Assembly: GCA_051362555.1 (NCBI GenBank)
Contig: CM120644.1
Span: 8,626,954-8,690,953, forward strand
From: Lingula anatina
Taxonomy: Eukaryota > Animalia > Brachiopoda
Direction: 5' to 3'
DNA length: 64,000 nucleotides
Positions 25,377-55,804 of this stretch are shown one piece after another. Under the pieces are notes generated by a model that was not told where the DNA came from, searched no databases, and was given only the letters and a program-made list of their open reading frames with translations. Within the stretch, counting starts at the first letter, position 1; each line of letters starts with the position of its first letter. A program made the translations under genes and the position numbers.

Positions 25377-25428
<52 letters not shown>

Positions 25429-25565: not shown

Positions 25566-25619
<54 letters not shown>

Positions 25620-29428: not shown

Positions 29429-32400
29429 CTATACATGTAGATCGGCGAGTTTTTCTGAAAAGATGAAACATAAAAATTATCAAAGTTTTGGTAACTTAAA
29501 CATCCGTTCAAATATACGTGAACTCTTAAAAAACTAGTTTCACAAGTATGACGCTGTAAATAAGCATTGGTGAATAACGTGTATTATTCAGTTTCGTGAA
29601 GACAATGAATGCAATATTTCTACCAACAAGTTCGTTTATTTTCACTTTTTTCTAACTTTTCATATTGGTGGTGGTGGTGGTATGGTGTTAGTTACGGTTG
29701 TGTTAGTCGTGATTTTGTTAGGTGTGACACGTGTGCTTCCTCAGGTCGTGGGTATGCGCCTGTCATTGTGTTAGATGTGCTTGCGCCTGATGTGATTGCA
29801 TCGTAAATTGCCACGCAATCACAACCGCCCACCCAGCAGCAGGCAAACGGCATTGATTCTACGTTGATTCAACGTTGATCCACCAAAATTTACGTTGATT
29901 CAACAGTGAATCAAGGTCGTTTGTCTGCTGGGTGCACGTGCACCAACCTGCTGCCTGTCTGTGATTCAAGTTCTCCAAATGTTTCTGTAAACCCTCCAAT
30001 GTCGCTCCACCGGATTCTCTCCACATCATCAACGCCTTGAAGCATTTCTCGTCGTCGTTCAGCGGAGAGTTGGCGATTTTCTCCACTTCGCCGAACGGGA
30101 CGCTGAGCTCTAGGGCCACGTCCCGCCACCCGGCCACCACCGCAGTATTACGTATCAAAACGTTGAACGCTTTCACCAGGTTTAGATCTAGGGGTGAGAG
30201 AGAGTGCTGGCGGTTACTCAGATTACAGTTTGGACTCAAATGTAATAGTCAGAATAAGGTAATTGACGTCAACTGTTACACTCAAAGAGATGGCATTTTG
30301 CATCTATCCATAAAAGGTTTTATGGCTGTTAAACGGTTGTATTATCTTGTTCTTATACTGTAAACTTCGCTTTTATCCTTTCTGCAGTGTAATTTCACAC
30401 ATTTTATGTACTTTGGTCTTAACACAAGAAAACAAACCAAGTTATACATACCTTGTACTTTACGCAGCATGTGGGCTTTGAACTCTTGGACCTTCTTCCG
30501 GACCAGAGCCTCGAGATCAGGTCGGCCGATCTTGGTGCACATCTTTTGCAAGGCAGCTGCCTGTACGGGTGAAGCATGAAATAGTCGGAAAATAATTGGA
30601 ATGTAGCCTTAATTCCATTTGCGTGAATGGGGAAGAAATAGGTGGGTTAAAATTATATTACGGTTTTCTTGAAAATGACGCTGTGCACAGCTTTACGGCG
30701 TGGATAACATTAGGATCAAAGACAACTGGAATTTTTGGTGTCAAAGCGAGACAATTTTACACTGAGTAACGTTCCTATGGAAACTGCTCTATATTAATGA
30801 AATAAGAACAAGAACACCGCGATACAAACCTTATCAACTGAAATCGCTACGCTCTGGGACCATCTCCGCAATACCACCACTGCCCGCGAGGTGTCGTCAG
30901 GGTCGGCTTTCGCTATCTGGGCAACTCTGTGCGAAGATAAACCCAGCTCTTTGCCCAACTTCTCCCAGTCACTACCGAGCATCGGGGCCAGCTCCAAGAG
31001 GAATTCGTCTGTGATTGCATCTAGAACACGAATATATATGAAATACCTCTGTTCAGAGAATCGTGTTAATTGGATTTATTCCAAATAAATAAATAAATAA
31101 ATAGAACAGCTTTGTAATATTTGCTTCAGTAATGCCCCAGAACTCATTTCGATTTGAAATGCCTATTCTTTTCACAAAATACATCCCATACTCCATGTCC
31201 ATTTAAACACCATTCCCAGCAAATACGTTATTATATAGCGTTACCAGAACGGTTTGTATAAAAAAAAAGCTTTATGGTAACGTTATGGTAACGTTATAAT
31301 AACGTTCTGTGTTTGCTGGGACTATAAGTGTATTTAATTTAAATTTATTTAGTCTTCCAGGTTTACCTTTATTGTTACAATATTTATATTTAAAGGAGGC
31401 GACCAACCAAAATATGATTTTCCATTATCAAAGCAGATATTATCTACGAGGAAAATTTTTGAGTGTGTAAGCCTTCTCTAAACCGCCGTAAAAGAGCATT
31501 TTCTACCGTGAAGGCAAGGATCGAGCTACTAATTTTCTTCTCTTCTGTCATAAGCAGTGAAGATTGTAAAACATGAACAGTTCTAAACATCCATACTACG
31601 TGGAGTGGTGAATTACACATGATCAGCGACAAAACTCCGAGCTAACTGTAGGGTACAGGTACTGTATGTACATGCTGGCCTATGTAGATACCGAGTATGT
31701 ATGTTTTCTTTATTCTGAATTGTGTGCAGAGGCGCATGCTTTAAAGAACAGCACTATTTTTCTTCCTCACAATATAGCCAAATTAAGCAGTCAAAATGAA
31801 ATTGGAGAGGTAAACATATATTGGTACATACACAGCTAATAATAAGCCGTGACTGATCTGAAATCTAAGGTATTAAATCTCTCCATATACATAAGCCAGC
31901 CAATTGACAAATGCAAAAGTGTGCTTACATGCAAAGAAGTAAGTGGAAAATAACGTCGCACCTCAAGCACGCTGCATGCATGTATGAAAGTTCTTGCAAA
32001 TATAAGCAAAAAAAAGCTTGATAAAAAATGCCGGCCCGACTGATTTACAATATCGCGATGCGGTGGCCATGGTACAAGGGGTAGAGGGGATAGAAGGGGG
32101 GTTACAATACCTCATCCATTTATCCATTACCTTTATTCTCTTTGACACTCAAGTGCTACATGTGTCTATCTCCCTTTTCGGAAAGAGTGGGACGGGACGG
32201 AGGGGTGGGGGAGGAATTAACGAGAAATTAATTTGTGTAATTTTAATGAAGATAGATATCTTGATGATACTTTATTATGCAGACTTACGAAACACGCCTG
32301 CAAATAACTGCTGCAATACAAATGCCATGCTGTATTTTAAGGATATCAGCATACATTAATGAACAAGCACACATGAACACAGTAAGGCATGCGGCCAGAA

Positions 32401-34345
32401 CACATCGACTTGTAAACGTGCAATATTCGTGAAATTTCACTCACCGTTGCGCACTTTGATAAAGTGAATGATTAAATACAATTGATTAAATCATAAAAAA
32501 TTATGTAGCCTAACATGTGTTCCTTTTGTAAATGAAGTTACATGTAACTTTCATATATGCCGAACGCAATGTTTTCGACTAATCAGTATAATTCTTTCAT
32601 TCCGATATTGTTGGTTGGTTAACTTTTTATTAGGGATTTTAATCCGGTTTGACAACACACAGTCCTCTAAACTACGAGGAAGATTCTACAAACACAAACA
32701 AACTTATTTTAAATCGCTACTGACTGCAAGATCGCAATCACTATGCAATTAAAAGCAAATAAAATTATTTGCTCTACAAACGCTATAATGGTACTATATA
32801 ATAGAGGAATAAAAATAATGAAGGATTCGTAGCAATACTCAAAACGTAGGCAACTTACTTTCCCGTTTGTTTGACAGACCCCTCTTTGCCTACAAAAGGA
32901 GAGAGACGATTTATTTCAAATGTGAAAGCAACGTATGCACACGTTGAATATCATATTCATAGACGTTAAAGTGAAGTCACGACTCATCAATGCTGCGCTG
33001 ATATAACTTCAGTAAGCCACCAAGAGTATTCTATCTGTAGGTGATAATTTGGTGTTGTTTTTAACAGGATATACTCTATGTTGACAGCATTTAAGGATAC
33101 ACGTGACCAGTATTGATTTGCAATACGATATAATTTAGTTCTGAAAAACTTAATCACACTCAAGTACTTACCCAAATGTTTTTAGTCTTCCTTAATCTGA
33201 ACCACAATTTCTCCCTAAAATACAAACACAGCACAAGTTATGTTAGATGTTTTGTTCTTTAATAAAAGACCGTGCATAGCTGTCTATGATCCATCCACTG
33301 ATACATTTACTTGTATCGAATCTAATGGAGAGCAGAATCTTTGCCATATGGGCAGTCAATTTGTCCACACCGGCATTTCCGCTGTGAAAACGATTCAGCA
33401 CTAGTACTTGGCGCAGAGCTAATTCTTTAATTTTTTAGTTATAAGAGTCCACTGTATTTTCTACTCACTCTGGCGTTGGTAACCGTAGCAAGCAGCGTAT
33501 GGACGGCATATCTGGCGTCACTGCATGACTGATGGCGGAGTCGTACCAATGGCCGTCACCATACTTTGTTGTCACCCGGATCTCTTCGTCCTCTACAATT
33601 TAAAAAAAAAAAACTCGACGATATATGAAATCTTGATCAGCCTTGTAAACTTGCAAAATATGTAACAAACCAAAAAATAACGTGTGACATAGAATTTTTT
33701 GCCAGTTTAAAGACATATGAGAGCAACGTATACGTATACAGCAACACCGATATCACGATGAACAGACATTTAAAGTTAGAAACAAAACTGACTTGCAGAG
33801 TAGACAGTTTAGACAAAAAATATTGTATACACTAGTATTCTGGCATACGGAATATAATAATGACAATTTGAAACTGTTCAAATTAAATTGCTGACAAAGT
33901 CAAATGAAATGAAATTTAGATCACATTAGTGACAAGGGATAACCAACTTAAATATAAAAATGCAGCTATAACACCATGTGCTTTAATAAAGGACGTCGTT
34001 ATATATGTATATATATGGATACGTTTATAACTGTGGTACAACCAACTAGTAAGAAGGGAAGCAGTATCAATAAGCTAAATCGCACGCACGTACAAACACA
34101 CACAAACACGCACGCACAAAAACGTTCACACGCCCGCAAACAAACACATACCTTCTATCGTAATGGCAAAGGGAATTTGCACACTGATCATGTTTTGTCC
34201 GGGTAAAGAAGTGGTTAAGTTGAAGGTGTCACTGGCAATATACGTCTTCCTCTTCTGGTGGTCTGTTATATTGATTACCTGGAAATAAAACGCACACATA
34301 AATCAGTATACATGTACCAGTTACCTCGGTACGATTGTGTATTTG

Positions 34346-34406
<61 letters not shown>

Positions 34407-34538
34407 GTAAAAACGTTTTTCCTGTACGAGTAATATTATATATAATAAAAAGAAAAAATGAACAGCAACTTTTTTGCCCCGACCGGTTTCTTTCTTTCTT
34501 CGGTCGGGGCAAAAAAGTTGCTGTTCATTTTTTCTTTT

Positions 34539-34611
<73 letters not shown>

Positions 34612-37600
34612 AGTAAGAGAAAATATAGAAATCAAAACTCAAAGAGCTACCAGTACTCCTAATAAGAATTTTTAATTACAACTTAAATGTATGAAACATG
34701 CATTTTGAAGCACCGCGGTAGATTTTACTTTTTGGAGTATGGTCAAAACAGATCCGGTTTTATTTCAAACACACAGGTAGCATGTACACTTAAACAAATT
34801 TATCCAATAACTTATTACAAACCTATGCCTAATGGAGAAAAATCGTCTACTTATGTAATTTCTAAACATGCAGCGAATGTCAAGTTCATGTGATGTATCA
34901 TACAGCAATTTGTAAGTTGTGTTCAACTCACCTGCAGTGACACTGTAGATGTCGCTTCAAACGTATCTACGTCGAATGTTATTGATAGATTTTTACAATC
35001 TGACGTGGTTACAACGCCCCCTGCTGGCGAGATTTTATGTGACGTTCGTTTATGTAGCGCCACCGCGGCGGCCTTCCGTGGTAATCGGGTGACTCGACCC
35101 TGAACAACTACGTAGTTCTGAAATTGTAAATTAATATGAATGTCTTATGTCTCATAAGATATAACAATCTTTAACCAAATATGACAAATCTTGATCTCAG
35201 TAAGTTACGGCATCAATCAATGGAAGTTTGAAGTACATCAAAAGCGTACAGATCTTTTTCATTCATTTATTTTTTCTAACATTCAGAAAACTTGTGATTC
35301 ACGTTTATTGCAAATTGAATCATACAAATGTGTCGTATGACAAAGATTCTAAAAAGCATCATTTTTCATATCCTTTTTGTTTATGAAAACGGGAGTCACC
35401 AATTTCAAAAATACCTGTACAATGTTTATGCAATTAACTAATCCAATAACGGGTACCGGAGAAGATCATCATTGGTCAGAATTGTGCCGGAAGTGACGTG
35501 CAGTGGTGTTAGAAGCGAAGCTGAGTGGTCATTTTAACATAGAGGTGAACGGCAGTGAAGACGGGTTGTCGGAGGAAAAAGAAGTTTTCTAAACAACATG
35601 GTAAGATCAGGGCCGTAGCCTCCGGGGGGGCAGGAGGGGCAGCTGCCCCCCCTGGGATTTGAGGCGCAAATATGGCAAAATGGCAAAATGAACCCACAAT
35701 TTTTGACTTCTGATTGAGCAATAAATAACAGTTAAAATGCACCAGAATGCAGTATTATACATACAGTTTTTTAAAAATTTTCCACACCCACCCCACCCCC
35801 TCGGGGGCTTTGCCCCCTCGTGTCCGCTTACTGCCCCCCCCCCCTGGCATTTTGCTCAGGCTACGGCCCTGAAGATAACTCTCCTTTTTTACGCATTTTG
35901 GGCAGAGAATACTTGTAGAAATAATAGACGCATGATATGAAAACGTGACACGGAACTTGAAGGTGCAAAATCGCCTTTGTCTTGGCATTCGTCACTGATT
36001 TATGCCTACCCCAGTGTAAAAGGTGTATCAGTGTGATCATGTGTGTGGAATTTCATGCCAGATGGACATATAAAGATCTAAAAATTCGTCAATATATTGA
36101 AAAAAAAGATACAGCTGTGCACAGCAGTCGGAGATCGGTACATTGCACTTGTTAGTTACAAACTACTTCCTGGTTTTCACAAGGTCCTTCAAGACCTCTA
36201 AAACATCGTTGTAATTGCAGCCCATACCATAAAACACCCAAAAATACTTAGATATGGACATATCGGATTATATTAATGCCAAATTTCCACATGACAACGA
36301 TTTATAGACTCCCGGGAATTATTTCCCCTTTACGCTTTTTGTCGCGCTGGCGGTCGACGCAGCATTTATTTCTAAACAAGTTGACCGCAAATTAAGCACG
36401 ATTTTGCACCTTCAAGTTCCGTGTCACGTTTTCATATCATGCGTCTATTATTTCTACAAGTATTCTCTGCCCAAAATGCGTAAAAAAGGAGAGTTATCTT
36501 ACCATGTTGTTTAGAAAACTTCTTTTTCTTCTGACAACCCGTTTTCACTGCCGTTCACCTCTATGTTAAAATGACCACTCAGCTTCGCTTCTAACACCAC
36601 TGCACGTCACTTCCGGCACAATTCTGACCAATGCTGATCTTCTCCGGTTCCCTTTATTACATCCTCGGTTTTAAACATTTTGACTAAATCTGTCTAACTG
36701 ATTTGCTCAGATTGTTCTTTCTGTTACAATATAAAGTTTCTTCACACCATGCAATAAGATTGTTTATATAACTACTAGCAACCCTTTTACGAATATACCT
36801 GTCCTTCTAGCCGGTAGTTTTTAACAGTGTGGGGTACCGTTTCCCACTGGTTACCATTGACGTCATAAGACACGCGCAGAGATATCTCGGGAGCTGACGA
36901 GAATAAACGATCTCCAACTGGTATGCCGATTATGATGTCACTCTGTGAAAGGACCAAGTAAACTCTTTATCAGTAATGATAGCAAAGCAAATTGCATTCA
37001 TACTTGTATTTTAGACAGCCTGTGAAATGACGAGGACATCAAATAATATAGAAATAATGAAGCATGCAAAAATTGTCATATGTGTTATCTGTTACTTGCA
37101 ACACTCACAAGAATAAACTAAACTCATGACAGCTATATCTAATTAAATAGGCCACAAGAAAACAATTCGCGTCCATTGCAACTAAATTAGACGAAATACA
37201 TGTGAAATAAAAACACAGTGTAAATATTTTCTAGCTTTTTCATTCCATATTCATTGTTCGAGCCCAAGCTATACTAAAACAAATATTTAAAAATCAAGCC
37301 GTCATCGCTATTAGGGACAGCACTGTACGTAAAATTTTTGGAAAACCCAACTGCATGTTATATAATAATGAGCAAGCACGCATATTGCACACATTTAAAG
37401 GCACCAGATGACCGAACTGTTGCCTAATAATAAATGTGTCTTTAAATGCACCTACCTCCAATTCAAATTGCCCGCGTGGTTCGAAGGCAATGAGTGCCCC
37501 CATAACGTATCTGACGTCCTCACAGCCCACCTTGTTCAATATACTATTGGGGGTGTCTACGTCACACAAGATATCCTCGCCGTCCAAAGTGCCTGGTACT

Positions 37601-39201
37601 GCCTTCACAATGGAGAGCAACGTTTGGCTGGTGGATCGGAAACTGGAATGAGAAAAATGTTTCAAAAACATGAATGAAACAGCAGATTTTATTATTTATT
37701 CGTTTTCAGTTATCATTCTTTACAAGCTATTTCTTTCTTTCTTTTTTTTGTATTTTATTGTAGGTTTTTTCCTGGGAGCAGGGGTGGCAGCGGTAAAAGA
37801 CTACTAACTTTGTTGGCAAACAAAACAAACAAATTGAGGCGAAAATCCATCTGTATCCTACCAAACCCCACAGGTTTAATTTAATTTTCGTGGTATTTTA
37901 ATGCAACAAACTGGAATTCAAGCATGCAGACCGGAAGTCTTACCATATCATTTCCCAGCTATCTGGATCGCCTTCCATCTGGGACATGTTGTGCCACTTG
38001 GCAACGACACGACGGACCACCTCTTTTTCTCTGTCCTCCTTCATAATACTCTTGTCACGACAAACTCTCCGTATTTCATTCCTGACCATTCTCAGAAGGG
38101 ATTTCTGCATCGCCTGGAGCTCTTTGGTGATGTCAAAGACGCTTTTCTTCATTTTTAGTGCTGTCGTTTTAAAGGACTTATTTTCTGGTTTGACCTCTGA
38201 TCCTTCTGGTTTAGTCTCGCCTAGTTCTTCCTCCAGACTCTGGATGGCCCAGTTAACTGTTTTCTCCATCTGCAAGAAAATTAATGAGGTAGAATGAAGT
38301 AGAATGAGTATGAAGTAGAATTCGAAAGTAAACCTAAAGAGATATCGATAACCATTATATACTGCATGACCTTAACACACCACCTTATTTATACGCATGC
38401 TGTAAAAAGACATCCAAAATCCAAAATTGCACATGGTGTTGTATAGCAGCAAAAATTGGTAACGGCTTGCTTATACACTCAGATAAAATATAATAACCCA
38501 GAGATCTTGTTGGTTTGAATAAATAGAGTATTTTTAAAAGTGAGGTAGACATGAGCAATAAGACAAACGTATCAGCAGCATCAAAATACATGTCACTGAA
38601 TTCCTGCACTAGTCAACCCAATCCTAGCTTTACCTTATACCTTTACCCCGGTACCTGGCATACTTCTATTTTACTTACCTCAGGTATGGTTTAGAAGGGC
38701 CAGTGGCCATATTTCAGCAATGAATTCCTTTAGGTTTTATCAAGATAATGACACACTTATGAAAATCGTCGTTCTGCCAGACACTATACTTGAACCTACG
38801 TGTATCAAACTATACTGAGACCTTCATATAGGGCTTTAAAAGATGCCAAGCAGATGGCATAGCCAAAATAATGTTCTATCATTGATCAGCGCACGCGGAT
38901 ATTGGTTGTCTGACGGGCATTTGCTAACTCACCAAATAGGCTAAATCCAATCCCACGTTTACAGACTGTAGATACGTGTCTTCCTGCAGATAATACTTTG
39001 CTGTCAAATAAGACGTCCCCAGTTTACTATTCACCATATCCGGGTCTTCTTCGGCGATCGGACCGTTGCTAGGTGACAGACAAAGCCGCACAGAAGACGG
39101 CCTCAATGGGAGGTTTACCGCCGTGTTATCTGCCTTTGGATCTGGTGAGGTTTCGTCAACGCTCACTTCGGCACCAGTCAGGGGTTCCGTCGACCCTGCT
39201 A
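29429..39201 (-). CDS. DTHD1-like portion: helical linker, two ZU5-like domains, two death domains
   Basis: ZU5a: SIVKAVPGTLDGEDILC..MGALIAFEP..DIIIGIP..EISLRV..NQWETV. ZU5b: AAVALHKRTSHKISPAGGVVTTSD..ITFDVDTF..VSLQV..ISVQIPF..GHWYD. DD1: ITDEFLLELAPMLGSDWEKLGKELGLSSHRVAQI..VLRRW..KIGRPDL. DD2: GWRDVALELSVPFGEVEKI..EKCFKALMMWRE..ATLEGLQKHLENLNHRQAAEKL. Confidence 0.85.
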
Positions 39202-42200
39202 CTGCAAATAAGATAAAATGTCTGTCCATTAATGATAATGTTATAAAAGCCTTTTTACCATAATTTTAGACAAAAGAACAAAAAATCAAATATGTCTTGC
39301 CATAATTAAAAAAAAAACATCATGTTTGCATTAACAAGGGTAAGAAGTGCGGTTAACAGGATATACCTATACGTCAACCCAATATTTTATTTCACAACCG
39401 ATATAAGAGTGGTAATAACCTGAAGTAAACAACTGAAAAACAAAGGTATTTCAGCATAATAGAAAAGTGAATGTCACACATTTCTGAAAGTTTCATAACC
39501 CCCATCTAACACACACACACATACACACACACACCCCACCAAAGAATTGACACATTACTCAAATGGCTTAAAACACGTTTTGTTAGGTTTTACACATACT
39601 TACGTCCAAATCTGACCGTCTTTTTCTCAGCCTTTTTAGTGGTGAACAGAGCGCCTATCTTATCCATCAGATGTTTATTCAGCTCCCTATCATACTCCTG
39701 CTTGGTAGGGTCCTCTTTGACGTCCGACAGAGTGTCGTTGATTATAGACATAAACATGTTCAACAAAATGAAATTCATCGACATTGCAAACACAACGAAC
39801 ACTAAGATCATTACAAGAGAGTCTTGCTCCCGGAGATCAGCGTATTTTAGAATCCCCAACATGGCACCAAATAGACGGTACATAGATTCGGGTATTTCTT
39901 TGAAAGAGGTAGTGAAATCCCCGGTCTCTATCACTAGCGCCGCGCTAAAGCTGTACAAGAGAACGACGAATATCCCGACGTAGTTCATGACCTCTCCAAA
40001 GCTCCGTTTGAGGATGGACTTTAAGACGGCAAAACTCTCGCTAAAGGAGAGAGGAGCAAAAAGCTGCATCATGGCCAAAAACAAGTCCAAGGCTATGGCA
40101 GTACTGTAAGCGTCGTCCCAAAGAACTACTCGATCGAAAGGTACAAACTTACCTAGATAATGAAAGTAACATCACGGAATATATAATTTCGACATAAAAT
40201 GCTGAAAACACTCTGACTACTTAGATCACATAGATACCCAAGTGATGCTAGGCAAATAAATAAGCATCAAGTAAGAACCCCTTTAAGCATGATATTGTAA
40301 TACACGGCAAATGTTTTTTGGTAAAATGAGATCAACACCAAAAAACTTACCAATATTATTCTTGACCTCCTCGACCACTTCCACGAGGTACACCGTCCTG
40401 AGGACAAAGAAAGCCATGCTTAGGAACGCCATTATGCAGTCACAGAGGCCTAGGACGTGCCACAGATGTCTGTAGAAGTACTGCAACTTCATCTTGAACA
40501 TCAGAATCAACTCCTTCACGAAGAAATAGATCACGAAGATTGCCCATATGATCTGGATGAGAAGCAGAACGAAGTCGAATGCCTCCACGTACGGGTAAGG
40601 TCTGAAACTTGACTGCGTGGCCGACACCATCATGCCACCGGTGACGGGGAATTCGATGGCGACCCTCACCATGGTGAAGACGTTGACGAACGCGTTGTTG
40701 ATGGTGAACTCCACGAAGACAGCCCTCGTAGAACGGTCCAACCAGTTGTTGGCTTTGAGACTTGTGAATGTGGCTGTCGCTGCGGCCGCGCTGGAGACAT
40801 CCACTATATATCCGCTAGGGGGATATGAACCAAATAAACCGCTGTACCAAAAGTCGTTTGGGCCGTCCTGAACCTTATATTCAAATCCCTGTGGCATGGT
40901 GTGTCCAGCAGTAAGGTTGAATATGTCCCATTCTTGAAAGAAACACAGTGCGGTTTTTATTTTGATAAATGCTAATGAAACTAATATAATGTATCGCAAA
41001 GCAACAGAAGCCTGAACTACAATGTAAAAGAAATTTTGAGTCTTTGTTTTTATATTTCCCATTACTTTTAAAATGCTATAAGAAGATGAGATGATGGCAT
41101 TTACCTTCCGTGTGGTTGTGTCTCACTTCAAAGCGGTCCTCCCAGTACGGGATACAAGAGTTAGTCAGTTTGTACATGGGCTCTACCACAGAACATCCCC
41201 CTGGCGATAGAAGCATTGCAAAATATGGTACAATAGCAACATAATAATAAAAAAATAATAATATAAATCGAGTACTCAATATCACATTTACAATTACTGA
41301 ACAACATGTTTCAGTCAGTCCTATTATGTTCACTTGTCTGTGAGGGCAAATTAAGGTAACAATACCAAAATTGTAAAACCTTGCAACATATGAAAACATT
41401 TCACAAAATATAACATCCTAACAACAACGTATGACTTACCTTTTCTGACGCGCACTTGGCGCAGACGCAATGGGCCCAGTCTCAGTCCCGCTAGATCTCG
41501 TATGAACTGAGTCTCGTAGGCGTCTAGAGTGTCACCATTATACAGCGTCGTTGGGAACACCCCGGGCACGATTGTTTCGTCTAACCACGTCCAAATGTCA
41601 TCAAAGCTACCAAACTACAAAAATATTAAAATAAAAAAGAACGTTATGCTACCTGTATTTAAATGATATTCAAACGTGTCGTAAGACTCCTAATCACACT
41701 TACAAACAATTAATTAACCAAAATCATGTTATATCCAAAATTATCTTGACTTCCTCAATTACAATTAAAAAGACAGGCAATCGTATAATTTTTATTTTAC
41801 GTGACAACAGTGTGTTCAATACCGACTTGTATGGCAAATGCGACAAACCAGCACACTCGTTTACCATACTGTTTTATTCTAAATTCTAGCTACAAAGAAA
41901 ACTGAAAGCAGTTACGCATGCAAAAACACGTATTTATCAGAGATCTAACAATGGCACTTGCTCCCAATGGCTTACCGATATATCCCCCATTTCGAAACCA
42001 GTCCGCACAGCGTAGTTTTGCAGAAAAAAGTTGTCATCGCGGTTACTGAAGCAGATGACGATGAGTAAAAATAAGTGCAACAGGTGAACTGCCACGTCCT
42101 GCAGTTTCCCCATCAGTCTTTTGTCCCGAAGATGCGACGCTCTTTTCTCCTTCAGTTCCTCGCTGTTGTCGCCTGGTTCCTCGAGTTGATGCGGTATGAA

Positions 42201-44432: not shown

Positions 44433-44484
<52 letters not shown>

Positions 44485-46154
44485 TGCATTGGTGTTGTAG
44501 TTAATACAGATTAACAATACGAATCTGTTTTTATTGACAAAACATGAATGGTTTGACTTAATCTGCCTCTGCTTGTCTGTGTTAGGTTAAACTTTCCCCT
44601 TTACCTGCTTGACGTGGGTCGAGTGAACACCGAAATCCACAAGTGATCGTCAAAGAAATTCTTGGAAGCGTTTTCCTCGAAAAGTTCGTTGAACTCCTGG
44701 ATTTCATCTTCAGAGCGTGCAGTGAGCAGACGTTCGATCCTCTTCTCGCCTTTGGTATGTGACAGCCACCGACCACAGGTGAAGAAGAACCTGCAGACGG
44801 ATTAGGTATAACTTTTTAAACCATATCATCACCTTCAGACTAAGATCATACTCCGCGTCTCCTTGTCAGACTCGCGTTCATCTAACAGTACATGTGCGGA
44901 ACTATGTGTCCAAACATACAAATACATGTAAATTCGTTTTGTTTCTCATCGTGAGCAAATTTTTATAATTCATTGATTTATTTTCAATATCTTTTGACAC
45001 AAAGTCATTCCAAGGCACCCTCTAGCGAGTAATATTCCACACCTTATGAGACAGCCTCTTGTTCATTGTTTGTGAACAAAAATAACTTTCAAAACAATAT
45101 ATAAGTCCACCGGAATGCAAAAAAAAAAGATATTAAAAAAGCTGTAGACTATTTCAGAAAGACTAACACCCCATTTCCATAGATTTTTAGATCGATCTAT
45201 CCCTGTGGGGAGTCTCACTAGATTACTGTCAGCTTGGCCGGCTTAAGCGTCTGTCCCGCCTACATAAAGCTGTAAGGGGGTAATTAACTATGGTGCCCGC
45301 TCAGCTGACTGCAATTTAGCGTGAACCCCCAGGGAGTTAGGTCGATCTAAATCTTACTCTTTAGATCGATCTAAATCTCTGGGAAAGCACCCTAAGAACG
45401 TACAATCTCTACGTACCGTTTTTTCTCTGTGACGTCATAGACTATGATCTTTCTGAGGAGCCAGTGGGGACTTTTCCCCTTCCCGTCATGCCATATCTGC
45501 ATATTAGTAAGTTTTCCTAGGGACTTGGGGACGCCCATGATGTAGTTATTGGTAGTGCCACTTTGTAAACACTAATTGGTAAAGGTAACTAGTATAATTA
45601 CGCTTGTTTAATGCAAACGGTATAGCCTTTGTTCGGTATTATCACAGGATAGTTTTGCTGGGGTTTGCTTCAGACGTTTAATAAAAACACAAACCCAGTG
45701 CACAATCATCAAAATATGGTACAGTTACAGCTTAGTTGTTTTATACTTGATGTGATGGCGAATGTTTGAGATGAAACTACCAGATCCTGATGTGACTAAT
45801 CATTATTGTGCAGTATTTATTTTTATGATATCAGATAATCAATTCACCTTACGCTGTCCATCTGACAGCACTCTTGGTCTTGTCTTCCCGAGTTCCCCGT
45901 GGAGTATGAAGTAAACATTGGCCGATAGATGGCGCGACGAACGCAGACCGGTTAACACGCTGATTCTGTAGTAATAAGTGTCACTTTTCTTGTTGTCAGA
46001 TAACGGTGCATAAGCCCACTAAAATATGAGAACATGGATTTTCAAAATAGTTTTTTTAAAAAACGTGACATGTTGCTCTAAAATATTGTCAATTTTGGGT
46101 TTCATTTCAATACAAGACAAATCATATTGAAACTATTTAATAATATGAACATTA

Positions 46155-46187
<33 letters not shown>

Positions 46188-48501
46188 AATAATAATATTG
46201 TTGTTGTTGTTGTTGTTGTTCTATCTATTATATTACATACCAGTATTCTGTCTTGAAGGTCCCTCCTCCTCATAAATATGACCAATATAATGTACAGAAC
46301 CACTAGACCAATCAGAAAACCGAACACATACGCATTCTCGGCCAGCCGCTCCCCAAAATTGGCGAACACTGCATCGAAGTCGATAGTGTTTGGTGGCTCA
46401 AATAAGCCGGCGGCGAATGATCCGAAGAAGTTGCTCTTAAAGACAACCTTTCTACCTGTCGATTCGGGAGCAATCTGTAAAATTGAAAGCAGCAGTTTCT
46501 TTATTTATTAGGCCTCTATACCATATTAAAATTACACAATTTCTACATCGATATGCAAATCCATTCTTTTTTGTGACAAGTGACATTTAACATAATATGA
46601 AGTATGTCTTCATGTTACCTCTAGCTCTGTGGACGTTTCCCATTGGCTGGTAGTTGCGTTCCACACGCGTGCGTCGATAGTTAGCGCCTGCGCAGTGAAG
46701 TTGGTGGTCGTGTTCCCTGAACTTAGAAGTCTTCTGCTGCTAGATACGACAGCCTGCGGACCTTCACGGTACAAAGTGTTTAAGCATTAAATAAATTAAA
46801 ATACATTGAAAATTATACCCCAGTACGTATGCATGATTAAAAAGAGAAGCTTGAACAGGCAAGTGACCGCATGTGTTGAGGTGGCATTACGGTGGCTAAA
46901 AGTACCTTGGGGTAAATTTGCATAAGTTCCTATGGTATCAATTAAATGAAATAAGCCTGCAATGTATTTTTAGCGTAAGCTATTGCAGAGGGATATTGCT
47001 TAATATTTGAATCAATATGAACATCATATTTGAAGTAAGACAACCAGATCCAAAGCTGCTTCAGTGTTGTAGAGGAGTCAACCCCCCTCCCCCTTCGTGA
47101 GTTCTTAAAATAATTTCTTTTCTCCCTGTCCGTAAGAAGTATCTTACTTTCCTTTTTGACAGCATCTTCCCAAACGTTTTGTAATTCAAGCATCTTTCAT
47201 CAAATAAGTTTTTCACCTTACCTTCCTGGGTAACACCAATGTACATGGTGCCAGCGCCATCGAAGTTCTTAGCAGAGACGAACAATCTGTAGCTGTTTGA
47301 GACTAGACTGACTGATATCCCTGTGGCACTTCCGTAGTCAGTTGTTAAAAGCTGTGTGTCTGCAACAACTTTAAACAAGTACGTGGTTTCTGTCGGTTTT
47401 GTTTTAAAGTTGCCAATCAAGGTGTACGTGTCATTTGGATCGCCGCGCCTGTTGATGGTGACAAGCAAAGACGTTGGGGGGTCACTTATTGTGAAAGCCA
47501 AAAATGACGTGCTGCCATTGCCGTTTTCAACGACTATCTCTTCCGGATCAGTTGTTCTTCCGGTTTCACTTTCGATTTGCACCGGTTCTGTTGGTGTCAT
47601 TATGTTTCCATTAGAATCTTTGATCGTACAGTCGATGCTGGGCGAATTAACATCTTTATTGGAAGCGGAATAGGAGTGAGGGGGCTTGTCGTGTATAACC
47701 ATCTGGGATAAAAAGGCAAAAACTGTTTTACGTTTATGCTGAAGTACATACACAATGTTGATACCCGGTGCAAGTTAAAATAGCATGTTTGTGTTATGAA
47801 TGTTTAACAAGATTAAAAGAGCATATAGCTTGTGCGATTACCAAATTAATTTATTTCCTACAGTTAAATCACGTAAGCGTTTATACATTTTATTTATAAA
47901 CGGTATTCCAGATCAGAAAAACATGGTTGTTTATATTTGAAAACAAGCACAAACACATTATTAAATTATTCCGAACCCCACCTTAGTAAGCAGTGTTGTT
48001 CCAGGCGCAGCGTTGACCCCTGGCATAGCAACGTTGGCATTGGGCGCAGTGACATTTTGTGCTGGGTCATCACTGGTTGATTTCTGTAACGCCATGTTGA
48101 TGCTTCCCCCGGAAATGACGACAGGCGTGGTCCCATTGAGACCACTGTACACTAAGGAAGCCACAGTCTCCAATATTTGGTTGGCTTTTTCTACTGCGGC
48201 TTTAGCCTGGTAAAAATTAAAAAAAAGTTAAGTCTGACAAAACGGCTTAAAATCAATCAAAACTGGTTTGATTTTGAATGCTACCAGTTTTTTTGCATTA
48301 TTTTAGATAACTGACCAGCAATCATTGCCTCTGTTTTTACAAGAAAAAATGTGTATTTCTATGCACTGTAAATGCCACACAGTTGCTGGTTCTGTTTTAG
48401 CTACAACCGTCGCTTATTTCAGTATTGCTTTTCTTCTGTTTCTTGTGTTGCCACACAGTGAATCTGTGTTTTTTTACATACTAGTATATTCATCATCATC
48501 A

Positions 48502-48539
<38 letters not shown>

Positions 48540-50245
48540 GGTTGAATGACATATTTGAAAATGATCATATCGAATCAATCTTACCACAGTTCTGTCGGCT
48601 TCTGACATCTGGCTGCCGCCGCTGCTGGATGAATTACCGGAAGCTGCCGGTGCCGAGGTTGGAACAGAGGTCGCTGTCAAGGACGTCCCGATGGCCGACA
48701 AGAAATCTGGCAATTATATCAATTATGTGGATAGCGCTGCAGGCTGTTTTACAACACAATTCGTTATATTTGATACGTTCCCCTTGAATCGGTTACAAAA
48801 TGAGCAAACCAACCGTAATTAAGAGTGAGATACGTGCAGAAATGTAAACCGATGTTACATGTATGATGTTCATACGAACGCCCCAGATGTACATGTATAG
48901 CTTACGCCAGAATACTATATTATACAGAATACTTATAAAAATTTTAAAAAGGTTAACTTCGAGATCACCCACAAAAAATGGTATTACCATAATGCTTAGA
49001 CAAAGGAATCAACAACACGATAAGTGGAAATGTATTCATAAATATAGGATGCATACTTTTAAATGAAGGGAAACCAATACTCACTTTTTCCAACTCTAGC
49101 CACGGCGTCCACTGGCTGCCCCGCCATCCGCCCTGCCAGGTTGCTGGTGACGTCCAGGAGCTTATCCTAGATAATGTTTTAAACAGTTCAATCAAACTGA
49201 CCAGTTAAATACCTAAAGGCGCATTTATACAACCAAGAGAGTGAAGGATTGAATCAGAAAAAAAAATTAAACTTGACTTGTCCAAACTCAAAATTGCTTT
49301 TGTATTTTCTTTGTATGTCTTTATATTTTCACTTCATCTCTCTGTTGTTAAAATGTGTAATACAGCAACTTATCACTTGATATTTTATCCATGATTCATT
49401 TATTTACAGGTATTTATTCATTGCCCAAACAATGGTTCCTTTAACCAAATACATACTACATTAGTTAATCTTATCATTCATACATCTACTTCAACTTGCC
49501 TATTTTTCTTTTATTTATAAATTTATTTGCCAGTCATTTACTTATCTTTTATTTATATTTAGTATTTATTTTTATGGTACTTACTGCTGCTGATGCATCA
49601 ACGGATGTCAGGTTGCCCAGACCGCTGGATACCTTATCAATAGTATCCACACTCAGCGTTATATTTGGATTCGACGCAAATGATTCAATGTTACTGAGAA
49701 GTTTCTGAAAAAGAATAGAAAATTTACTTCGAGGCGTTTTCTGTGGTGACTCCGATTGTGGAATCCCTTGTTTCTGAGCTGCGAAGAAGTGAGAAATAAA
49801 CAAGGTCGATATGTATGTATGTACATAATTTGAAGTAGCTGCTTGGCTTGCAGGACCCCCGTGTTGCAGACGAGTACCGTAAAAAGTTAATATTAGAAGG
49901 GGCTGGCATTTACCTTTGTCGTACTTCTTATGCTTATGACTGACGTAGTTGAAAAAAATGGAATAACTCCTTATGAGTCAAAATTTCTGCTACAACATAT
50001 ACTTGAAAAAGTAAAACAAAAATAATCGAAATTCTGACACAATTTGGGAATTGGTCTTTTAACGGGAGAGACTGCTCCTCTGCTTTGTTTGAAAATATGG
50101 CGGCCGTCCCAAAGAGGCAACATACATGCACGCTCGGTGATGAGTGACCCATATTTACACAGGAGCTAAATAACAACATGGCTTATGATTACCTGAGTGA
50201 GCGCAGACGAGTTTTGGGATCCATTCCCAGCTCCCGAACCCTGGA

Positions 50246-50301
<56 letters not shown>

Positions 50302-52950
50302 GTGAGGGCTACAAAACTAATATTTCCATTCAAAGGAGTCATTTTTGCTTGAAAACAGTAGAAATTCCACCTGTTTTAATGCAGGCGAACTTGTTCTTTT
50401 GACTCGACTGCTACTGTTTTATCTGTGGGCTAATAGTCATTCTTTGTGAACGCGGTCTCAATGTCGAAAGATCTGTTGTTGGCATAACTTACGGCTAAAC
50501 TCGCGCCAATGTTTAGTACGGCGTCTGCAAAAGCATCCGGGTCCTCCATTAGTGAGTCCAGGTTATCCAACATTTCGTCTGCGCCTTGATTGAAGATACA
50601 GAAAATAAAATCAGAGAATGATGAAACATTGCAACGTGTCCAATATATCCTAGATTTTTTTCTTTTGGAAAAGTATGTTTCATAACGTAGTCAAAATTAC
50701 ATTTTTAAACATATAACATCTTTCTATTTGCAGTTTAGGAAATTGTGACACAAACATCGGACAAGTACCTTGAATGTAATTGGTCCGTCGAGAGAAAGGT
50801 TGTATCCCCTGTAGTTAATTGTTGAATGAAAATAAGATATCAGCTAGACGACTGATCACAAGAGAACACAGGCTTCTTCTATGAATTAAGAGTGTATCAA
50901 ATATGAATAATGGGCGACATGTCTTAATAACAGTATTCCACTCACTCGCTGTTGTAGTTTGGACGGGTGTTGTGGTAATGAGAGGCGTGGTAGTTGTAGT
51001 GGAGGTTGTCGTCGTCGTCTCCTCGGCCATTGTCGTCTGCTCGGGCGTTGTCGTCTGCTCGGTGGTAGTCGTCTGCCTGACCGTTGTCGTCTCACTCTCT
51101 GTAGTAGTGGTCATCTCCTGTGTCGTGGTGTCCTCCATTGTCGTGGTCATTAGGTTCACTATTTAATACATATTATATTATATTATATTATATTATATTA
51201 TATTATATTATATTATATTATATTGCGGGTCCAGCATTTCCAGAAGTGTAGTGATACATGACGAAGAACATTTTGTCCCTGTAATTGCTTTTATGCATTA
51301 ATACTGTTAATTGCATCATAACATACTGTAAGCGCCTAAAACCCACACACTACTATAAGAATAGACGTCGCCACGATCGTTTCGTCCTTTCGCCAGTACG
51401 ATGCTCATCATGAATTAGAAGAGATCGAGGCTCAGTGTTTGCAATAATATAGATGTCGCCACCTACCTTGATAACTAATGTTAGCCCCAGCAGCAGTAAT
51501 GGAGCCGTCTGATATGGACCAGAAGAGAATCACGGAGTAATCTAACGTGCCCGTGATGCAGGTGTCCCCGGTGCAGTTTTGGATAAAAGTATAACCTGCG
51601 TCGCCAATGTTTTTGCCAAAGACCTGCACATGATAAATTGATACATGGCGAGTAAAGACCCTCTACCAGGGCCTCAATATAAATAAGGTAATTAAATCAA
51701 TAGATAGGGATACAGATAAATATATGAATTTATTCCAAATGAATAAATAAATAAACGCAAAAATAAGTGCATTTCAAAAACTGGGCATAAACAAATTAAT
51801 GAATAAATGATATTAGACACGGTTGTCCATGTACTTACGCCTACGTAATCATAGCCATCTTCGTATTCAAAACTGTTGACGGTCAGAGTAATAGATGCCG
51901 CATATGGGCCTCCCAGGATGGTGGTGTTGCATGAGTGACCAGTCGGATATTTAAATGGATAATCCGGTGACAAGTAGGTACCAACAGGATCTGTTAATAT
52001 GTGATTGCACTGATAGGACGCTGGAGGAAAACAAAAATGAATTGGCTGTTAAACTAAAAATGTTAAGCTTTTGTAAACATGAGTGAATATGAGAAGGGCA
52101 TTTTATAACCTTGTCGGAGCGGCTATAAAATTCCCTAGTAACATACAAACTCTTATAGCCAAATGATGTAGGATTTTTGATAGGCAATGCACGTTTCATT
52201 ATCATCACTTCAAGTATATTAACGAGAGAAATATCCATTACGCTTTCCAACACTACGTGTATCAGGGCTGCTCATCTCCATCTCACTTTACTTTTCGTGT
52301 GTCTATTTACGATAGGAGAATAAAGAAAAAACAAGCTGGGTGCGATGTATAACAATAGGAATCTATTTTAGGTTTTGCCCAGTTGACAAGCCTGGTTCAC
52401 ACTTGGACTATTTCAGTCTTTGTTTCCACTCGACCAAACATTTTAGGCACTTTTAGCTTGGAAGGCACCGGTACTGCCCAATGATTAGATCGACCTTTTG
52501 GAAATTGATGTCACTCAGTGTCTGTGGAATACTCAGCCAGGTTCACAAATTTTATTATTGCAAAATGTCAAATCTGCTTCCATACTTTCATACAAATAGC
52601 AGATATGCAAATATGCAGTAAGCAATTATGCAGATAGCACCTTACCATTCACAGATATATTAAACCCCTGTTCCTGATTCCGGTAGCCATCAGCGGTGAA
52701 GTAGCCCACCAAAAGCAAGTGGCTAACCATTTGGGACTGCTCCTCTATGATGGTCACGTTTTGTTCTAAAGTCCAACCATAATTATTGCTCTCGCAGTAG
52801 CCCAGTTCGATCTGGAACGTGAAAAATACTGAGTTGAAGAGTACTGTTTGCAGTGTTAGGAAGGTGATGGCAAGAGCTTTAGAAACTCAATTAAGCGCCG
52901 CATCACTGACCGTTCGTTTCTTTATTGCATTATCAACATCATCATCATCA

Positions 52951-52987
<37 letters not shown>

Positions 52988-54586
52988 ACAATGATAAGCA
53001 TGCTGATAAGCCGTCAACACCAACAACAACAGGGCAATATTCAAACCCGGAATGCAAAGACTTGAAAAAATGAGGTTGCAGGCTTCACAATTAAATGAAA
53101 AATGCATTATTTCAAATGAACCGGTGAATGGATGATGCTATTAATATGCATTTCCCTGCAGTTTGATATACTCCCTGAGGTATTAAGATTTAATTACCTT
53201 TAATGTGTCGTTATCCAGGTTCAGCCCATGATAGAAAACCCTGGCTTTTCCATAAGGTAGGCTGGGCATGGAGACGTAGTAATAACACTTTTGGTTCTTG
53301 TCATACACTTGTGGGTAGTTTGAAGATGTGAAATAGGCGACAGGTGCCGCCACCAGCACCTGGTTACAGCTCTCACCTGAAAATTTTTTAATTAATTTAT
53401 CCGTGTGTTAATTAAGTCACCATATTATACGTTATGAATTTACAAACACACAGTTGGACATGCAGCAGCTTAAGTCTTTAGACTAAGAAAGGTTCTTACT
53501 ATACAGTGGTAACAGAATCACAATGACAACATACTGTAATTAACTACGGGTTTCGGAATTGCATGTAAGTTCAACCACTAACTCACAAACAAACGCACAA
53601 ACAAGCAACGCATTAGACTTGCAATTTTTTTCAAAAGTTATTATGTCCAAACAAAAATCTAAATTAAAACACGCACTTGAGTTGCTTAGCGTATTTGCAA
53701 ACACAGTGGTTTTGTTGCCTACAAAGATGCTCCCTTGGCCTTTCACGTCTATTGCATAAAGTATGCCCGGAGTCAGGCCGGTGATGGTAGCGTTGAAAGC
53801 GATCCTGTTCACCACGGCACTGCCACACGAGTTGTATTGACGGTTACCTAGACAGTGGGTACAGTTCACCTGAAAAATTGACATTAGGCATGGAGGTGAA
53901 CATGCATATTGAACAGTGTTAATCAGATCCAGAAGTTATATTTGTGTCTTGCAAGAAACGGATCCTCTCAAGCAATATACTTGTAAAAAAAACAGATTGA
54001 ATGTCAGGTCAGCTTAGTGCCAATTGATAAGACGTTTTCGTGAGCGCAGGTAATGCGGCTGATGAAAAGAAATGAGCATGCTTATAGTGTTTCAAATTCT
54101 CCGTTGATATATTTTGATGGATAACTACAGGTTTAACGTTGTTTTAAGTACATGCTCAATGTGAATGTACAGGTAAACACTATACAAGAGGATATCGAGC
54201 ATCACTATCGTGTTGATTTTGTAGTGGCCATTTACCTGTACCTTTCAGCTAACACAGTGAACGCAATATGTGTACTTTCACCGAACACAATCAGCACATT
54301 GCGCAATCTCAACTAACACAGCGTGACGTCACAACTCACCACGTATTGAGTCACGAGGCTAGCTCCTGTCGCTGGGGCACTCCACTGTATAACGACTGCT
54401 GTGGTGTTTCCACCCACCTGCATCGCGTTCTGAACTTCTGAAATCTCTGTAATAAAATATAGTTAACTGGTGGATGTGATAAAGGGTGATGATGAGTTGA
54501 GGCAAAAATGATAGCCTTGCTCCACATCACATCCTGCGACCTCCAATAATGGTAATGATTTAAAAACATTTGTGTCACTGTGGCCT

Positions 54587-54628
<42 letters not shown>

Positions 54629-55804
54629 GATGTCCCTATTCACCAATGAATGTAATTCCGGACAATCTGACCGTATTTGTCCCCGGACATTGACAGAAGA
54701 AAATCTGGCCCAATGACCCCCAGTTACCCCCTTCACTCCAACTATCGCCTTTCAGGTGTCGCAGTTACATCATAATGGTAATGTTCCTCTTTTACCATTT
54801 TCTACAGGTACATCTGACATGTCACATCATTGAGTGTTTTGACCTGCTTAAAGATGCGGATAAGATTTGAATGACGTGAACTCATTATATTTATGTTTTG
54901 AAATCTATAATTGCAAGATCAGTATTGATTGCAGAAACACGACATACTGATCTCTCAATCGATTCCGTAACTTGACATTCACATTTTTCTTTTACATTTC
55001 AACAATAGTTCACCTTTTTTGGCAAATGCACTGACTATTTGATCCTTTTGCGAGTTATCTTTATTATAACGACGTGGTCATTTTTAAATTTCACCAAGTT
55101 GGTTTCACACAGGTGAACTCACGAGCTCAAAATTGCTGGAATAAACACATTTTGAATAGGATTTAAGGGTTTGAATAAACATTGAAATTCTAAGATTAGA
55201 TTGTAAATCACTTGATTCACAGTATGCTAAGGTGAATTTTAGGGAGTGCAGTTTCTCGCAGTCAATATTCGGACATGATTCCAATTCAACTGCGCAGCAT
55301 TTTTCTATTCTAATTATCATGCCTTTCTTTTCTCATGTTTAACTCGCGTGAGTGGCCTCGCTGGTCAGGTTTTCTCTACCGTGACGGTTTGATTTGTAAT
55401 GTCAACAATTCAATAAATAAACTCATTGGTAATAGAATTCATACCGTGGAGGAGCAAATCGAAGTATCGATTTCACCGTTTACATACCAGAATTTTCGCT
55501 TGTATGTCGTTAGAAGCTGGCTTATCCTATATTTACGATCTTAAAAACATACTCTTTACATATATGTATATTATCATTCTTTATTTCTTTTTCTCTGTCA
55601 CGCTCTCTCCCTCTAGATCTGTCACATTCCCACCCACCCAATCACACGCATACGCACACACACACGCACACACACGCGCGCGCGAGCACGCACACACAAA
55701 CACACACACACAATAGTTTGTCCATACTTACGACATTCTACTTTCTTTATTCCAACTATCACTAGGGTGAATATCTGCAAAAGATAAAACACAAGGTCAA
55801 ACAT
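29429..55804 (-). CDS. Predicted polycystin-1-like (PKD1L2/L3-type) receptor-channel fused to a ZU5-ZU5-death-death tail; 40 exons, 7851 nt, about 2616 aa
   Basis: Manually phased GT-AG exons: 55732-55804, 54340-54446, 53677-53869, 53198-53376, 52646-52811, 51839-52020, 51467-51623, 50946-51158, 50493-50578, 50193-50240, 49585-49704, 49085-49166, 48585-48706, 47982-48206, 47222-47702, 46619-46761, 46241-46474, 45848-46018, 45417-45571, 44605-44790, 44115-44259, 42926-43555, 42458-42575, 41976-42208, 41440-41614, 41105-41200, 40351-40932, 39604-40152, 38933-39201, 37944-38269, 37456-37642, 36799-36942, 34932-35117, 34152-34278, 33469-33592, 33311-33381, 30830-31020, 30452-30560, 29948-30187, 29429-29454 (TAG). 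No internal stop; total length divisible by 3. A few boundaries have equivalent alternatives. Confidence 0.7.
31215..31320. mobile_element. Short palindromic MITE, sister of 27836-27940
   Basis: Ends CCCAGCAAATAC / GTGTTTGCTGGG; GGTAACGTTAT repeats. Confidence 0.75.
34437..34549. repeat. Perfect hairpin (49-bp stem, 15-nt loop) between two (TA)n tracts
   Basis: 34437-34485 is the exact reverse complement of 34501-34549. (TA)n at about 34348-34401 and 34542-34609. Confidence 0.92.
35445..36658. mobile_element. Non-autonomous element with near-identical inverted arms of about 260 bp, in the intron between ZU5 exons
   Basis: 35445-35973, minus the nested insert, is the reverse complement of 36399-36658 with few mismatches. 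Confidence 0.9.
35608..35871. mobile_element. hAT-like MITE nested in the left arm of the 35445-36658 element, 5-bp TSD
   Basis: Perfect 13-bp TIR CAGGGCCGTAGCC / GGCTACGGCCCTG. AAGAT duplicated at 35603-07 and 35872-76; the right arm of the host shows the empty site. Confidence 0.9.
39604..55804 (-). CDS. Polycystin-1-like portion: SP-FN3-CUB-CUB-Thr-rich-GAIN/GPS-TM1-PLAT-10 TM polycystin channel
   Basis: Signal peptide MFDLVFYLLQIFTLVIVGIKKVEC; FN3 (IQWSAP, ITGLTPGILYAIDV); CUBs (FTSSNYPQVY..C; LSPDYP..C..FEYEDGYDYV); PPNTIDF before TM1; PLAT (YYRISVLTG, QIWHD, FFFTCGRWL); DDHLWISVF, FSRVQR, LYSLQWGKEKALDWL, IIQPIKV, RLRQVRV, WLDRSTRAVFVEF, EFPVTGG, FILLNMFMSIIND. Confidence 0.93.
45167..45392. 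mobile_element. PIF/Harbinger-like MITE in a PLAT-region intron
   Basis: TAA duplication at 45164-66 and 45393-95; TAGATCGATCTA subterminal motifs; inverted homolog of 8166-8379. Confidence 0.85.
51170..51224. repeat. (ATATT)n pentanucleotide microsatellite just upstream of the acceptor of the Thr-rich exon
   Basis: Read directly. Confidence 0.9.

What the first reader, a model, noticed from the sequence alone, without database searches (positions are those of the whole stretch)
29429..55804. Polycystin-1-like channel apparently fused in frame to a ZU5-ZU5-death-death signalling tail
Seen: the last channel exon (39604-40152) ends at a canonical GTAAGT donor in phase 1. 402 nt further on, a phase-1 acceptor starts exon 38933-39201, and 11 more exons continue without a stop through a helical linker, two ZU5-like domains and two death domains to TAG at 29429. 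All 39 junctions are phase-compatible. Known: PKD1-family proteins end in a short cytoplasmic tail that binds PKD2-type subunits, while ZU5/death modules belong to UNC5 receptors, PIDD, ankyrins and DTHD1. I do not know a described protein that joins the two. Inference: a sensory channel subunit wired directly to a death-fold adaptor platform (apoptotic or innate-immune signalling, or cytoskeletal scaffolding), architecturally like UNC5 but on an 11-TM polycystin.
Basis: partly seen in the sequence, partly recalled or inferred. Interest (0 to 1): 0.92.

Follow-up and report, generated by a model that had tools for sequence, protein, structure and literature searches.

The report
Polycystin channel carrying death-domain tail
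A brachiopod gene likely encodes a polycystin-1-like sensory membrane protein whose inner tail ends in two death domains, a layout also present in database models of mussel and scallop proteins, which would link a sensory ion channel to cell-death or immune-type signalling, although that role is untested.

Summary
The fusion is very likely real. I rebuilt one open 43-exon frame of 2622 aa. Lingula anatina database models (XP_013384714.1, UPI00078A29CA) use the same 39604/39201 junction. The 39604 donor matches a phase-1 intron seen at nearly the same place in both Mytilus paralogues, so the stop at 39590 looks like intron read-through. No joint across it was listed in 8 of 8 runs laid; one run covers channel and tail exons at similar low depth. 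Both death domains are confirmed. 'ZU5' stays inconclusive: only weak fold hints. Polycystin-plus-death-domain models also exist in five Mytilus species and Argopecten, but their channels do not form one clade with the Lingula protein (AU p=1e-5). New here: three runs show a much more abundant short tail-only transcript starting in an intronic inverted-repeat element. My ten paper searches found no description. This scan found the architecture before on other DNA (e1-8672202, octopus/abalone). Function is untested.

The parts
60369..60398 (-).
   Evidence: N-terminus of P0151 found here, followed by GTAAGT
55732..55774 (-). Second exon, rest of predicted signal peptide
   Evidence: hydropathy
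53677..54446 (-). Fibronectin type III-like domain (2 exons)
   Evidence: Pfam fn3 E 1.3e-4, below curated cut-off
51467..53376 (-). Two CUB domains (4 exons)
   Evidence: Pfam CUB
50946..51158 (-). Thr-rich mucin-like stalk
   Evidence: sequence
46241..50584 (-). GAIN-like region, degenerate GPS segment and first transmembrane helix
   Evidence: KSNFFG stands where Saccoglossus P0086 and P0112 have CxCNHLTSF; no Pfam GPS or REJ hit
44605..46018 (-). PLAT domain
   Evidence: Pfam PLAT E 4e-14
41976..44259 (-). Further transmembrane helices of the PKD1-type N-terminal membrane part
   Evidence: hydropathy; match to human polycystin-1 chain 6a70_B
39604..41614 (-). TOP domain and 6-TM channel module (4 exons)
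   Evidence: Pfam Polycystin_dom, PKD_channel; RNA joints 41440-41200 (5 reads) and 41105-40932 (3 reads) in X6
39202..39603 (-). Key 402-nt phase-1 intron; read-through stop at 39590; AATAAA at 39391
   Evidence: no gene-strand depth in the bins that cover it in 8 of 8 runs
38933..39201 (-). Linker exon, first tail exon, no ATG at its start
   Evidence: depth about 2x in X6 only; in both database models
37944..38269 (-). Helical linker exon with an amphipathic heptad stretch (predicted coiled coil)
   Evidence: crude heptad scan; low RNA depth in X1, X3, X6, X9
33469..37642 (-). About 270 aa beta-rich tandem, ZU5-ZU5-like (5 exons); fold not established
   Evidence: RNA joints 37456-36942 (7 reads, 2 runs), 36799-35117 (8 reads, 3 runs); strands in a low-confidence model
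35445..36658 (.). Intronic element with 163-nt terminal inverted repeats (96%); source region of the alternative first exons
35415..35445 (-). 3' end of an alternative first exon, donor at 35415 (5' end not mapped, lies in the repeat)
   Evidence: 35415-35117 joint: 13, 20, 14 reads in X1, X2, X3
36503..36520 (-). 3' end of a second alternative first exon ending in an in-frame ATG (5' end not mapped)
   Evidence: 36503-35117 joint: 4 reads in X1; frame
32445..32453 (-). 9-nt microexon
   Evidence: in both database models; flanked by AG and GTGAGT
30452..31020 (-). Death domain 1 (2 exons)
   Evidence: Pfam Death E 8e-8
29429..30187 (-). Death domain 2 and stop codon (2 exons)
   Evidence: Pfam Death E 1.3e-5; FADD death domain Z 15.5, rmsd 1.1 over 87 residues

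Best explanation
One gene likely encodes an 11-TM polycystin-1-like protein whose cytoplasmic tail continues through a helix and a ZU5-like beta tandem into two death domains, so it is predicted to act as the sensor subunit of a PKD2-containing channel that carries its own docking platform for death-domain adaptor proteins. Shown: open frame, domain calls for channel and death domains, RNA for most exons, a short tail-only transcript. Inferred: splicing at 39604/39201 (about 0.88); assembly 1:3 with a PKD2-type subunit by analogy with PKD1/PKD2 and PKD1L3/PKD2L1; no GPS self-cleavage; ZU5 identity (about 0.7); recruitment of death-domain adaptors after ligand, pH or mechanical input at the FN3-CUB-CUB-mucin ectodomain (about 0.45). 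The short isoform (267-359 aa, both death domains, no membrane anchor) would act as a soluble adaptor or decoy for the same partners (about 0.3).
For: Open 2622-aa frame. Donor rank 9 of 40, acceptor rank 4 of 40. Two Lingula database models use the junction; one matches my model at about 99% over its length. Unnamed single-exon ORFs from the two Mytilus clusters stop matching the full-length records 19 residues after the post-S6 His and run into a phase-1 donor signature, against 22 residues here; 4 of the 5 fragments examined show this break directly, the fifth ends in the same read-through letters; 3 of 8 other short family fragments end similarly. In X6, depth is 0.3-5.8x in 18 of 20 bins with exon bases from 41700 to 34880 (7.3x in one of these, a 10-nt bin), on the gene strand, and 0 in the intron-only bins outside the repeat. 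12 of 14 long Mytilus records (five species, two paralogous loci) and Argopecten XP_069119237.1 carry a Death hit after the channel. Their beta regions are 276-287 aa against 270 here. A bivalve death-domain profile scores Lingula DD2 at 37.8 bits, DD1 at 8.9, 400 shuffles at most 4.5. DD2 folds like FADD. PKD1-family 1:3 heteromers: PMC10319900, passages.
Against: No 39604-39201 joint listed in 8 of 8 runs (threshold 3 reads; 6-30% of each run read); X6 has zero depth in the bin holding the donor, though also near zero in a bin wholly inside a channel exon. An AATAAA lies at 39391. In X1-X3 the tail's 3' half is at 15-20x from internal first exons while upstream exons are under about 2.5x. 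All supporting protein records are automatic gene models; most bivalve Death hits are below Pfam's cut-off (2 of 13 pass), and one M. californianus model (P0191) holds a death domain alone. ZU5 not detected by sequence; beta-region similarity to bivalves is marginal (1 of 300 shuffles scored higher, HHalign probability under 1%). Closest Lingula paralogues have no death domain. No binding or function was tested.
Confidence: 0.6

Rival explanations
1. The fusion is real but the tail is a structural anchor, like the ankyrin ZU5-ZU5-UPA-death tandem, that holds or traffics the channel at a membrane skeleton and does not signal to death or immune pathways.
For: Weak Foldseek ranks to ankyrin ZU5A-ZU5B (3ud2, rank 3, E 5e-3) and ankyrin-B tandem (4d8o, rank 7) for the mussel tail model; ankyrin-G death domain Z 12.0; no CxH or HFS-type autocleavage motif at the ends of the beta domains by eye (CxH motif from PMC3482391 passage; HFS recalled).
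Against: FADD death domain scores higher than ankyrin (Z 15.5 vs 12.0); no room for a UPA domain between beta tandem and DD1; an abundant soluble tail isoform fits an adaptor better than an anchor.
Confidence: 0.25
2. Two neighbouring genes: a polycystin ending at the stop at 39590 and a separate beta-beta-DD-DD gene, merged by gene predictors.
For: No junction read listed; AATAAA at 39391; short tail transcripts dominate in X1-X3; closest paralogues lack the tail.
Against: Conserved phase-1 intron; strong donor 14 nt before the stop; only 402 nt for a 3' end plus a promoter; no gene-strand reads in that gap; exon 39201-38933 is seen only in the run that best expresses the channel; fused models in six bivalve species.
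Confidence: 0.1
3. On origin: brachiopod and bivalve fusions arose independently from a mobile ZU5-death module, rather than once with later losses.
For: The Lingula channel groups with tail-less Lingula paralogues (SH-aLRT 97-98) and one clade of tail-bearing channels is rejected, p-AU 1.1e-5, 19 rows, 10 left out.
Against: All sit in one lophotrochozoan clade with the same degenerate GPS (SH-aLRT 99); same order and spacing of tail parts; DD2 matches bivalve death domains far better than DD1 does, though only one non-random control domain was used.
Confidence: 0.35

Closest known systems
PKD1-family polycystins (PKD1, PKD1L1-3, PKDREJ, sea-urchin REJ, LOV-1)
   Same: Large ectodomain, 11 TM, PLAT after TM1, TOP domain and 6-TM channel module.
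   Different: Tail of about 700 aa with death domains instead of a short tail (PMC10319900 passage); no REJ or GPS Pfam hit; GPS lacks the Cys and His residues; FN3-CUB-CUB-mucin ectodomain.
Ankyrin ZU5-ZU5-UPA-death tandem; PIDD1; DTHD1
   Same: Two beta-rich domains followed by a death domain; weak fold hits to ankyrin ZU5 tandems.
   Different: ZU5 fold not established; no UPA-sized segment; two death domains; attached to a channel. PIDD1 and DTHD1 layouts are recalled or from passages, not compared by sequence.
UNC5 netrin receptors
   Same: Membrane receptor with a ZU5-type and death-domain cytoplasmic module (recalled).
   Different: Single-pass Ig/TSP receptor with ZU5-UPA-DD; UNC5H2 death domain ranks only 44th (Z 7.8).
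Bivalve 'PKD1L2-like / LOV-1-like' models (Mytilus XP_052077930.1, XP_071126985.1, XP_071179984.1; Argopecten XP_069119237.1)
   Same: Channel, helix, about 280-aa beta region, death domain; same degenerate GPS and intron position in Mytilus.
   Different: One death domain; different ectodomain; unannotated tail; not one clade with the Lingula protein.

Membership tests
PKD1-family polycystin | 11 transmembrane segments | tested here: met
   11 hydrophobic segments after the N-terminal one
PKD1-family polycystin | PLAT domain after TM1 | tested here: met
   Pfam PLAT E 4e-14
PKD1-family polycystin | TOP domain plus PKD_channel module | tested here: met
   Pfam E 7e-36 and 7e-29
PKD1-family polycystin | GAIN/GPS with cleavable HL/T motif | tested here: not met
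   KSNFFG in place of CxCNHLT, shared by Lingula paralogues, Lineus, Mytilus, Owenia; position and Trp residues kept, so degenerate, not absent
PKD1-family polycystin | REJ module | tested here: inconclusive
   No Pfam REJ hit; a divergent version is not excluded
PKD1-family polycystin | Short C-terminal tail | tested here: not met
   About 700 residues follow the post-S6 helix; this is the variant feature
PKD1-family polycystin | 1:3 heteromer with a PKD2-type subunit | not tested
   Inferred from PMC10319900 passage; filter segment has Ile where PKD2 rows have Asp
Death domain (PF00531) | Six-helix death fold above family cut-off | tested here: met
   32.7 and 25.7 bits against cut-off 22.6; DD2 model pLDDT mostly 66-89 and FADD Z 15.5; DD1 was not modelled confidently
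ZU5 domain | Sequence match to Pfam ZU5 or solved ZU5 chains | tested here: inconclusive
   No hit; divergent members can be missed
ZU5 domain | ZU5 beta fold | tested here: inconclusive
   Models at pLDDT 25-66; ankyrin ZU5 chains rank 3, 7, 10, 24 at E 5e-3 to 3e-2 for the mussel tail, not listed for the Lingula tail
PIDD-type autoproteolytic ZU5 | C-terminal autocleavage motif (CxH; HFS recalled) | tested here: inconclusive
   Not seen by eye at the presumed domain ends, but boundaries are unverified
UNC5/ankyrin supramodule | UPA domain between ZU5 and death domain | tested here: inconclusive
   About 270 aa of beta region fits two domains, not three; which two is not established

The most novel reading that the evidence does not exclude
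An old lophotrochozoan subfamily of non-cleaved polycystin-1-like subunits carries a ZU5-ZU5-death tail and works as a channel-type death receptor: ectodomain sensing and calcium entry are coupled to death-domain adaptor assembly, and in Lingula a transposon-derived promoter supplies a soluble copy of the tail that tunes it.
Probability: 0.25. Interest if true: 0.85.

Novelty: new variant of a known kind. Interest (0 to 1): 0.62.

Why it matters
What PKD1-type subunits signal to inside the cell is a long-standing question. A natural fusion names a candidate partner class (death-domain adaptors or ankyrin-like scaffolds) and gives a testable construct. It would be a rare case of an ion-channel subunit bearing death domains, present in brachiopods and farmed bivalves, hidden under generic 'PKD1L2' labels.

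Tried and rejected
No whole genome held, so synteny and paralogue neighbourhoods were not checked. X4 and X7 showed no depth on channel exons at 95% likeness; X8 about one pair. A read pair inside the key intron in X3 lies on the opposite strand and was not taken as a 3' end. Word-index protein searches were poor: blank (capped at 2000 aa), one search gave 7 rows with only the Lingula record carrying Death, only Mytilus. Of the best 150 channel hits, 77 were scanned with Pfam and 3 had Death (P0001, P0027, P0106); a tail search of all 150 gave those three plus chance-level rows. Homology of the two linker exons to paralogue tails was not shown (shuffle p 0.04-0.99, 8 tails). Both structure predictions were low-confidence in the beta region (alignments of 4 and 10 rows; the first was misregistered). 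The ESM Atlas gave no answer. No internal repeat between the two beta domains. Ten paper searches listed no description of the fusion; passages read in PMC8260672, PMC12980990, PMC3482391, PMC8195603, PMC10319900; two supplements of PMC12980990 hold no 'death' or 'ZU5', but its figures were not visible, subscription journals are not searched and bioRxiv supplements are closed.
Full report
Gene model. Reading the minus strand and testing phases gave a 41-exon open frame from 55804 to 29429. With the database model's first exon (60398-60369) and a 9-nt microexon it becomes 43 exons and 2622 aa with one stop.

Identity. A search of 1.84 billion representatives with the last channel exon found a 100% match in a 2480-aa protein, named XP_013384714.1, uncharacterized LOC106154780 of Lingula anatina; a second member of that cluster (UPI00078A29CA, 2616 aa) has both death domains. 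Both read through the 39604/39201 junction. They differ from the window at about 14 residues, so they come from another haplotype or assembly. They are automatic models; I could not see their RNA support.

Is the junction real? The donor ranks 9 of 40 and the acceptor 4 of 40 among this gene's sites, and only 11 minus-strand positions in the window score as high as the donor. Single-exon ORFs clustered with two Mytilus paralogues end 19 residues after the post-S6 His in letters expected from reading into a phase-1 GT donor, while the full-length records continue into a tail; here the distance is 22 residues. So the stop at 39590 looks like read-through of an old intron. RNA: 8 of 9 listed runs were laid, 6-30% of each. 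No 39604-39201 joint was listed (threshold 3 reads). Run X6 covers channel exons, the linker exons and the beta exons on the gene strand at low, similar depth, with none in intron-only bins outside the repeat; it has no depth in the bin with the donor, but nearly none in a bin wholly inside a channel exon too. Listed joints include 41440-41200, 41105-40932, 37456-36942 and 36799-35117. I put the junction at about 0.88.

A short isoform. In X1, X2 and X3 (one study) exon 35117-34932 is at 15-20x and is spliced from 35415 (13, 20, 14 reads) and 36503 (4 reads, X1), in or beside an intronic element with 163-nt terminal inverted repeats. Upstream exons are far lower in those runs, so initiation is likely internal; the start site was not mapped. 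The 36503 form has an in-frame ATG (359 aa); the 35415 form would start later (267 aa); both keep the two death domains. These joints were not listed in X4, X6, X7, X8 or X9.

Domains. Outside: signal peptide, FN3-like, two CUB, Thr-rich stalk, GAIN-like region. The GPS position lacks its Cys and His residues, a change shared with Lingula paralogues, Lineus, Owenia and Mytilus, so self-cleavage is predicted not to occur. Membrane part: 11 TM, PLAT, TOP, channel. The filter has Ile where four PKD2-like rows have Asp, as expected for the odd subunit of a 1:3 channel (inference from PMC10319900, passages). Tail: linker, amphipathic helix, about 270 aa beta region, two death domains. Both pass Pfam's cut-off; DD2 matches FADD at Z 15.5, rmsd 1.1. 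The beta region had no sequence hit to ZU5 and folded poorly; the mussel tail model weakly ranked ankyrin ZU5 tandems near the top. ZU5 is likely, not shown.

Relatives. Of 77 of the 150 channel hits scanned, 3 carry Death: the Lingula record, Mytilus coruscus CAC5393050.1 and Argopecten XP_069119237.1. Following Mytilus gave 14 long records in five species at two loci; 12 have a Death hit after the channel, mostly under the curated cut-off. Their beta regions are 276-287 aa; similarity to Lingula there is marginal, but a bivalve death-domain profile scores DD2 at 37.8 bits against 8.9 for DD1 and at most 4.5 for shuffles. On a quick tree of the channel region, all these genes lie in one lophotrochozoan clade (SH-aLRT 99), but the Lingula gene groups with its tail-less paralogues and a single tail-bearing clade is rejected (p-AU 1.1e-5; 19 rows, 10 left out). 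One origin with several losses and two independent fusions both remain open; I lean 65:35 to one origin.

Mechanism. Most likely a sensor subunit that joins PKD2-type subunits and presents a death-domain platform on the inside, recruiting adaptors after ectodomain stimulation, with the short isoform as soluble adaptor or decoy. All of this is inference. The main rival is an ankyrin-like anchoring role.

Novelty. The layout sits in databases under generic names. Ten searches listed no paper describing it; a 2026 abalone TRP survey draws its TRPP1-like proteins without death or ZU5 domains in text, legend and two supplements (PMC12980990, passages and supplements). An earlier unchecked note of this scan reports the same layout in octopus and abalone; I did not retrieve those sequences. 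This report adds a brachiopod and bivalves, the conserved intron, RNA data and the short isoform. Verdict: new variant of a known kind, interest 0.62.

Noticed in passing
window 35445-36658: Element with 163-nt terminal inverted repeats and an inner 102-nt inverted pair; reads from other copies pile on it with many A>G and T>C differences, which could be copy variation or editing of double-stranded RNA.
   Followed up: partly
window 23903-27307, + strand: Rhodopsin-family GPCR gene (Pfam 7tm_1 on two ORFs), opsin-like by eye, tail to tail with the polycystin gene.
   Followed up: no
window about 5124-5973, + strand: Exons of an Aladin (AAAS) beta-propeller gene.
   Followed up: no
window about 32150-32211, - strand: The different C-terminus of XP_013384714.1 matches intronic sequence upstream of DD1 in this window, suggesting an assembly difference or a repeat copy in the RefSeq assembly.
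   Followed up: partly
P0175 (Mytilus trossulus XP_063414496.1, isoform X2): An annotated isoform that ends before the death domain: tail length may be regulated in mussels too.
   Followed up: no
P0003, P0009, P0029, P0048, P0167: Members of the degenerate-GPS clade carry varied ectodomains (C-type lectin, Kringle, VWA, PAN, EGF), hinting at receptor diversification.
   Followed up: partly
window 34340-34610: Short hairpin-like element (49-nt perfect inverted arms) flanked by long TA runs inside an intron.
   Followed up: no
window 18825-19299: Tandem-repeat region giving repetitive open frames.
   Followed up: no
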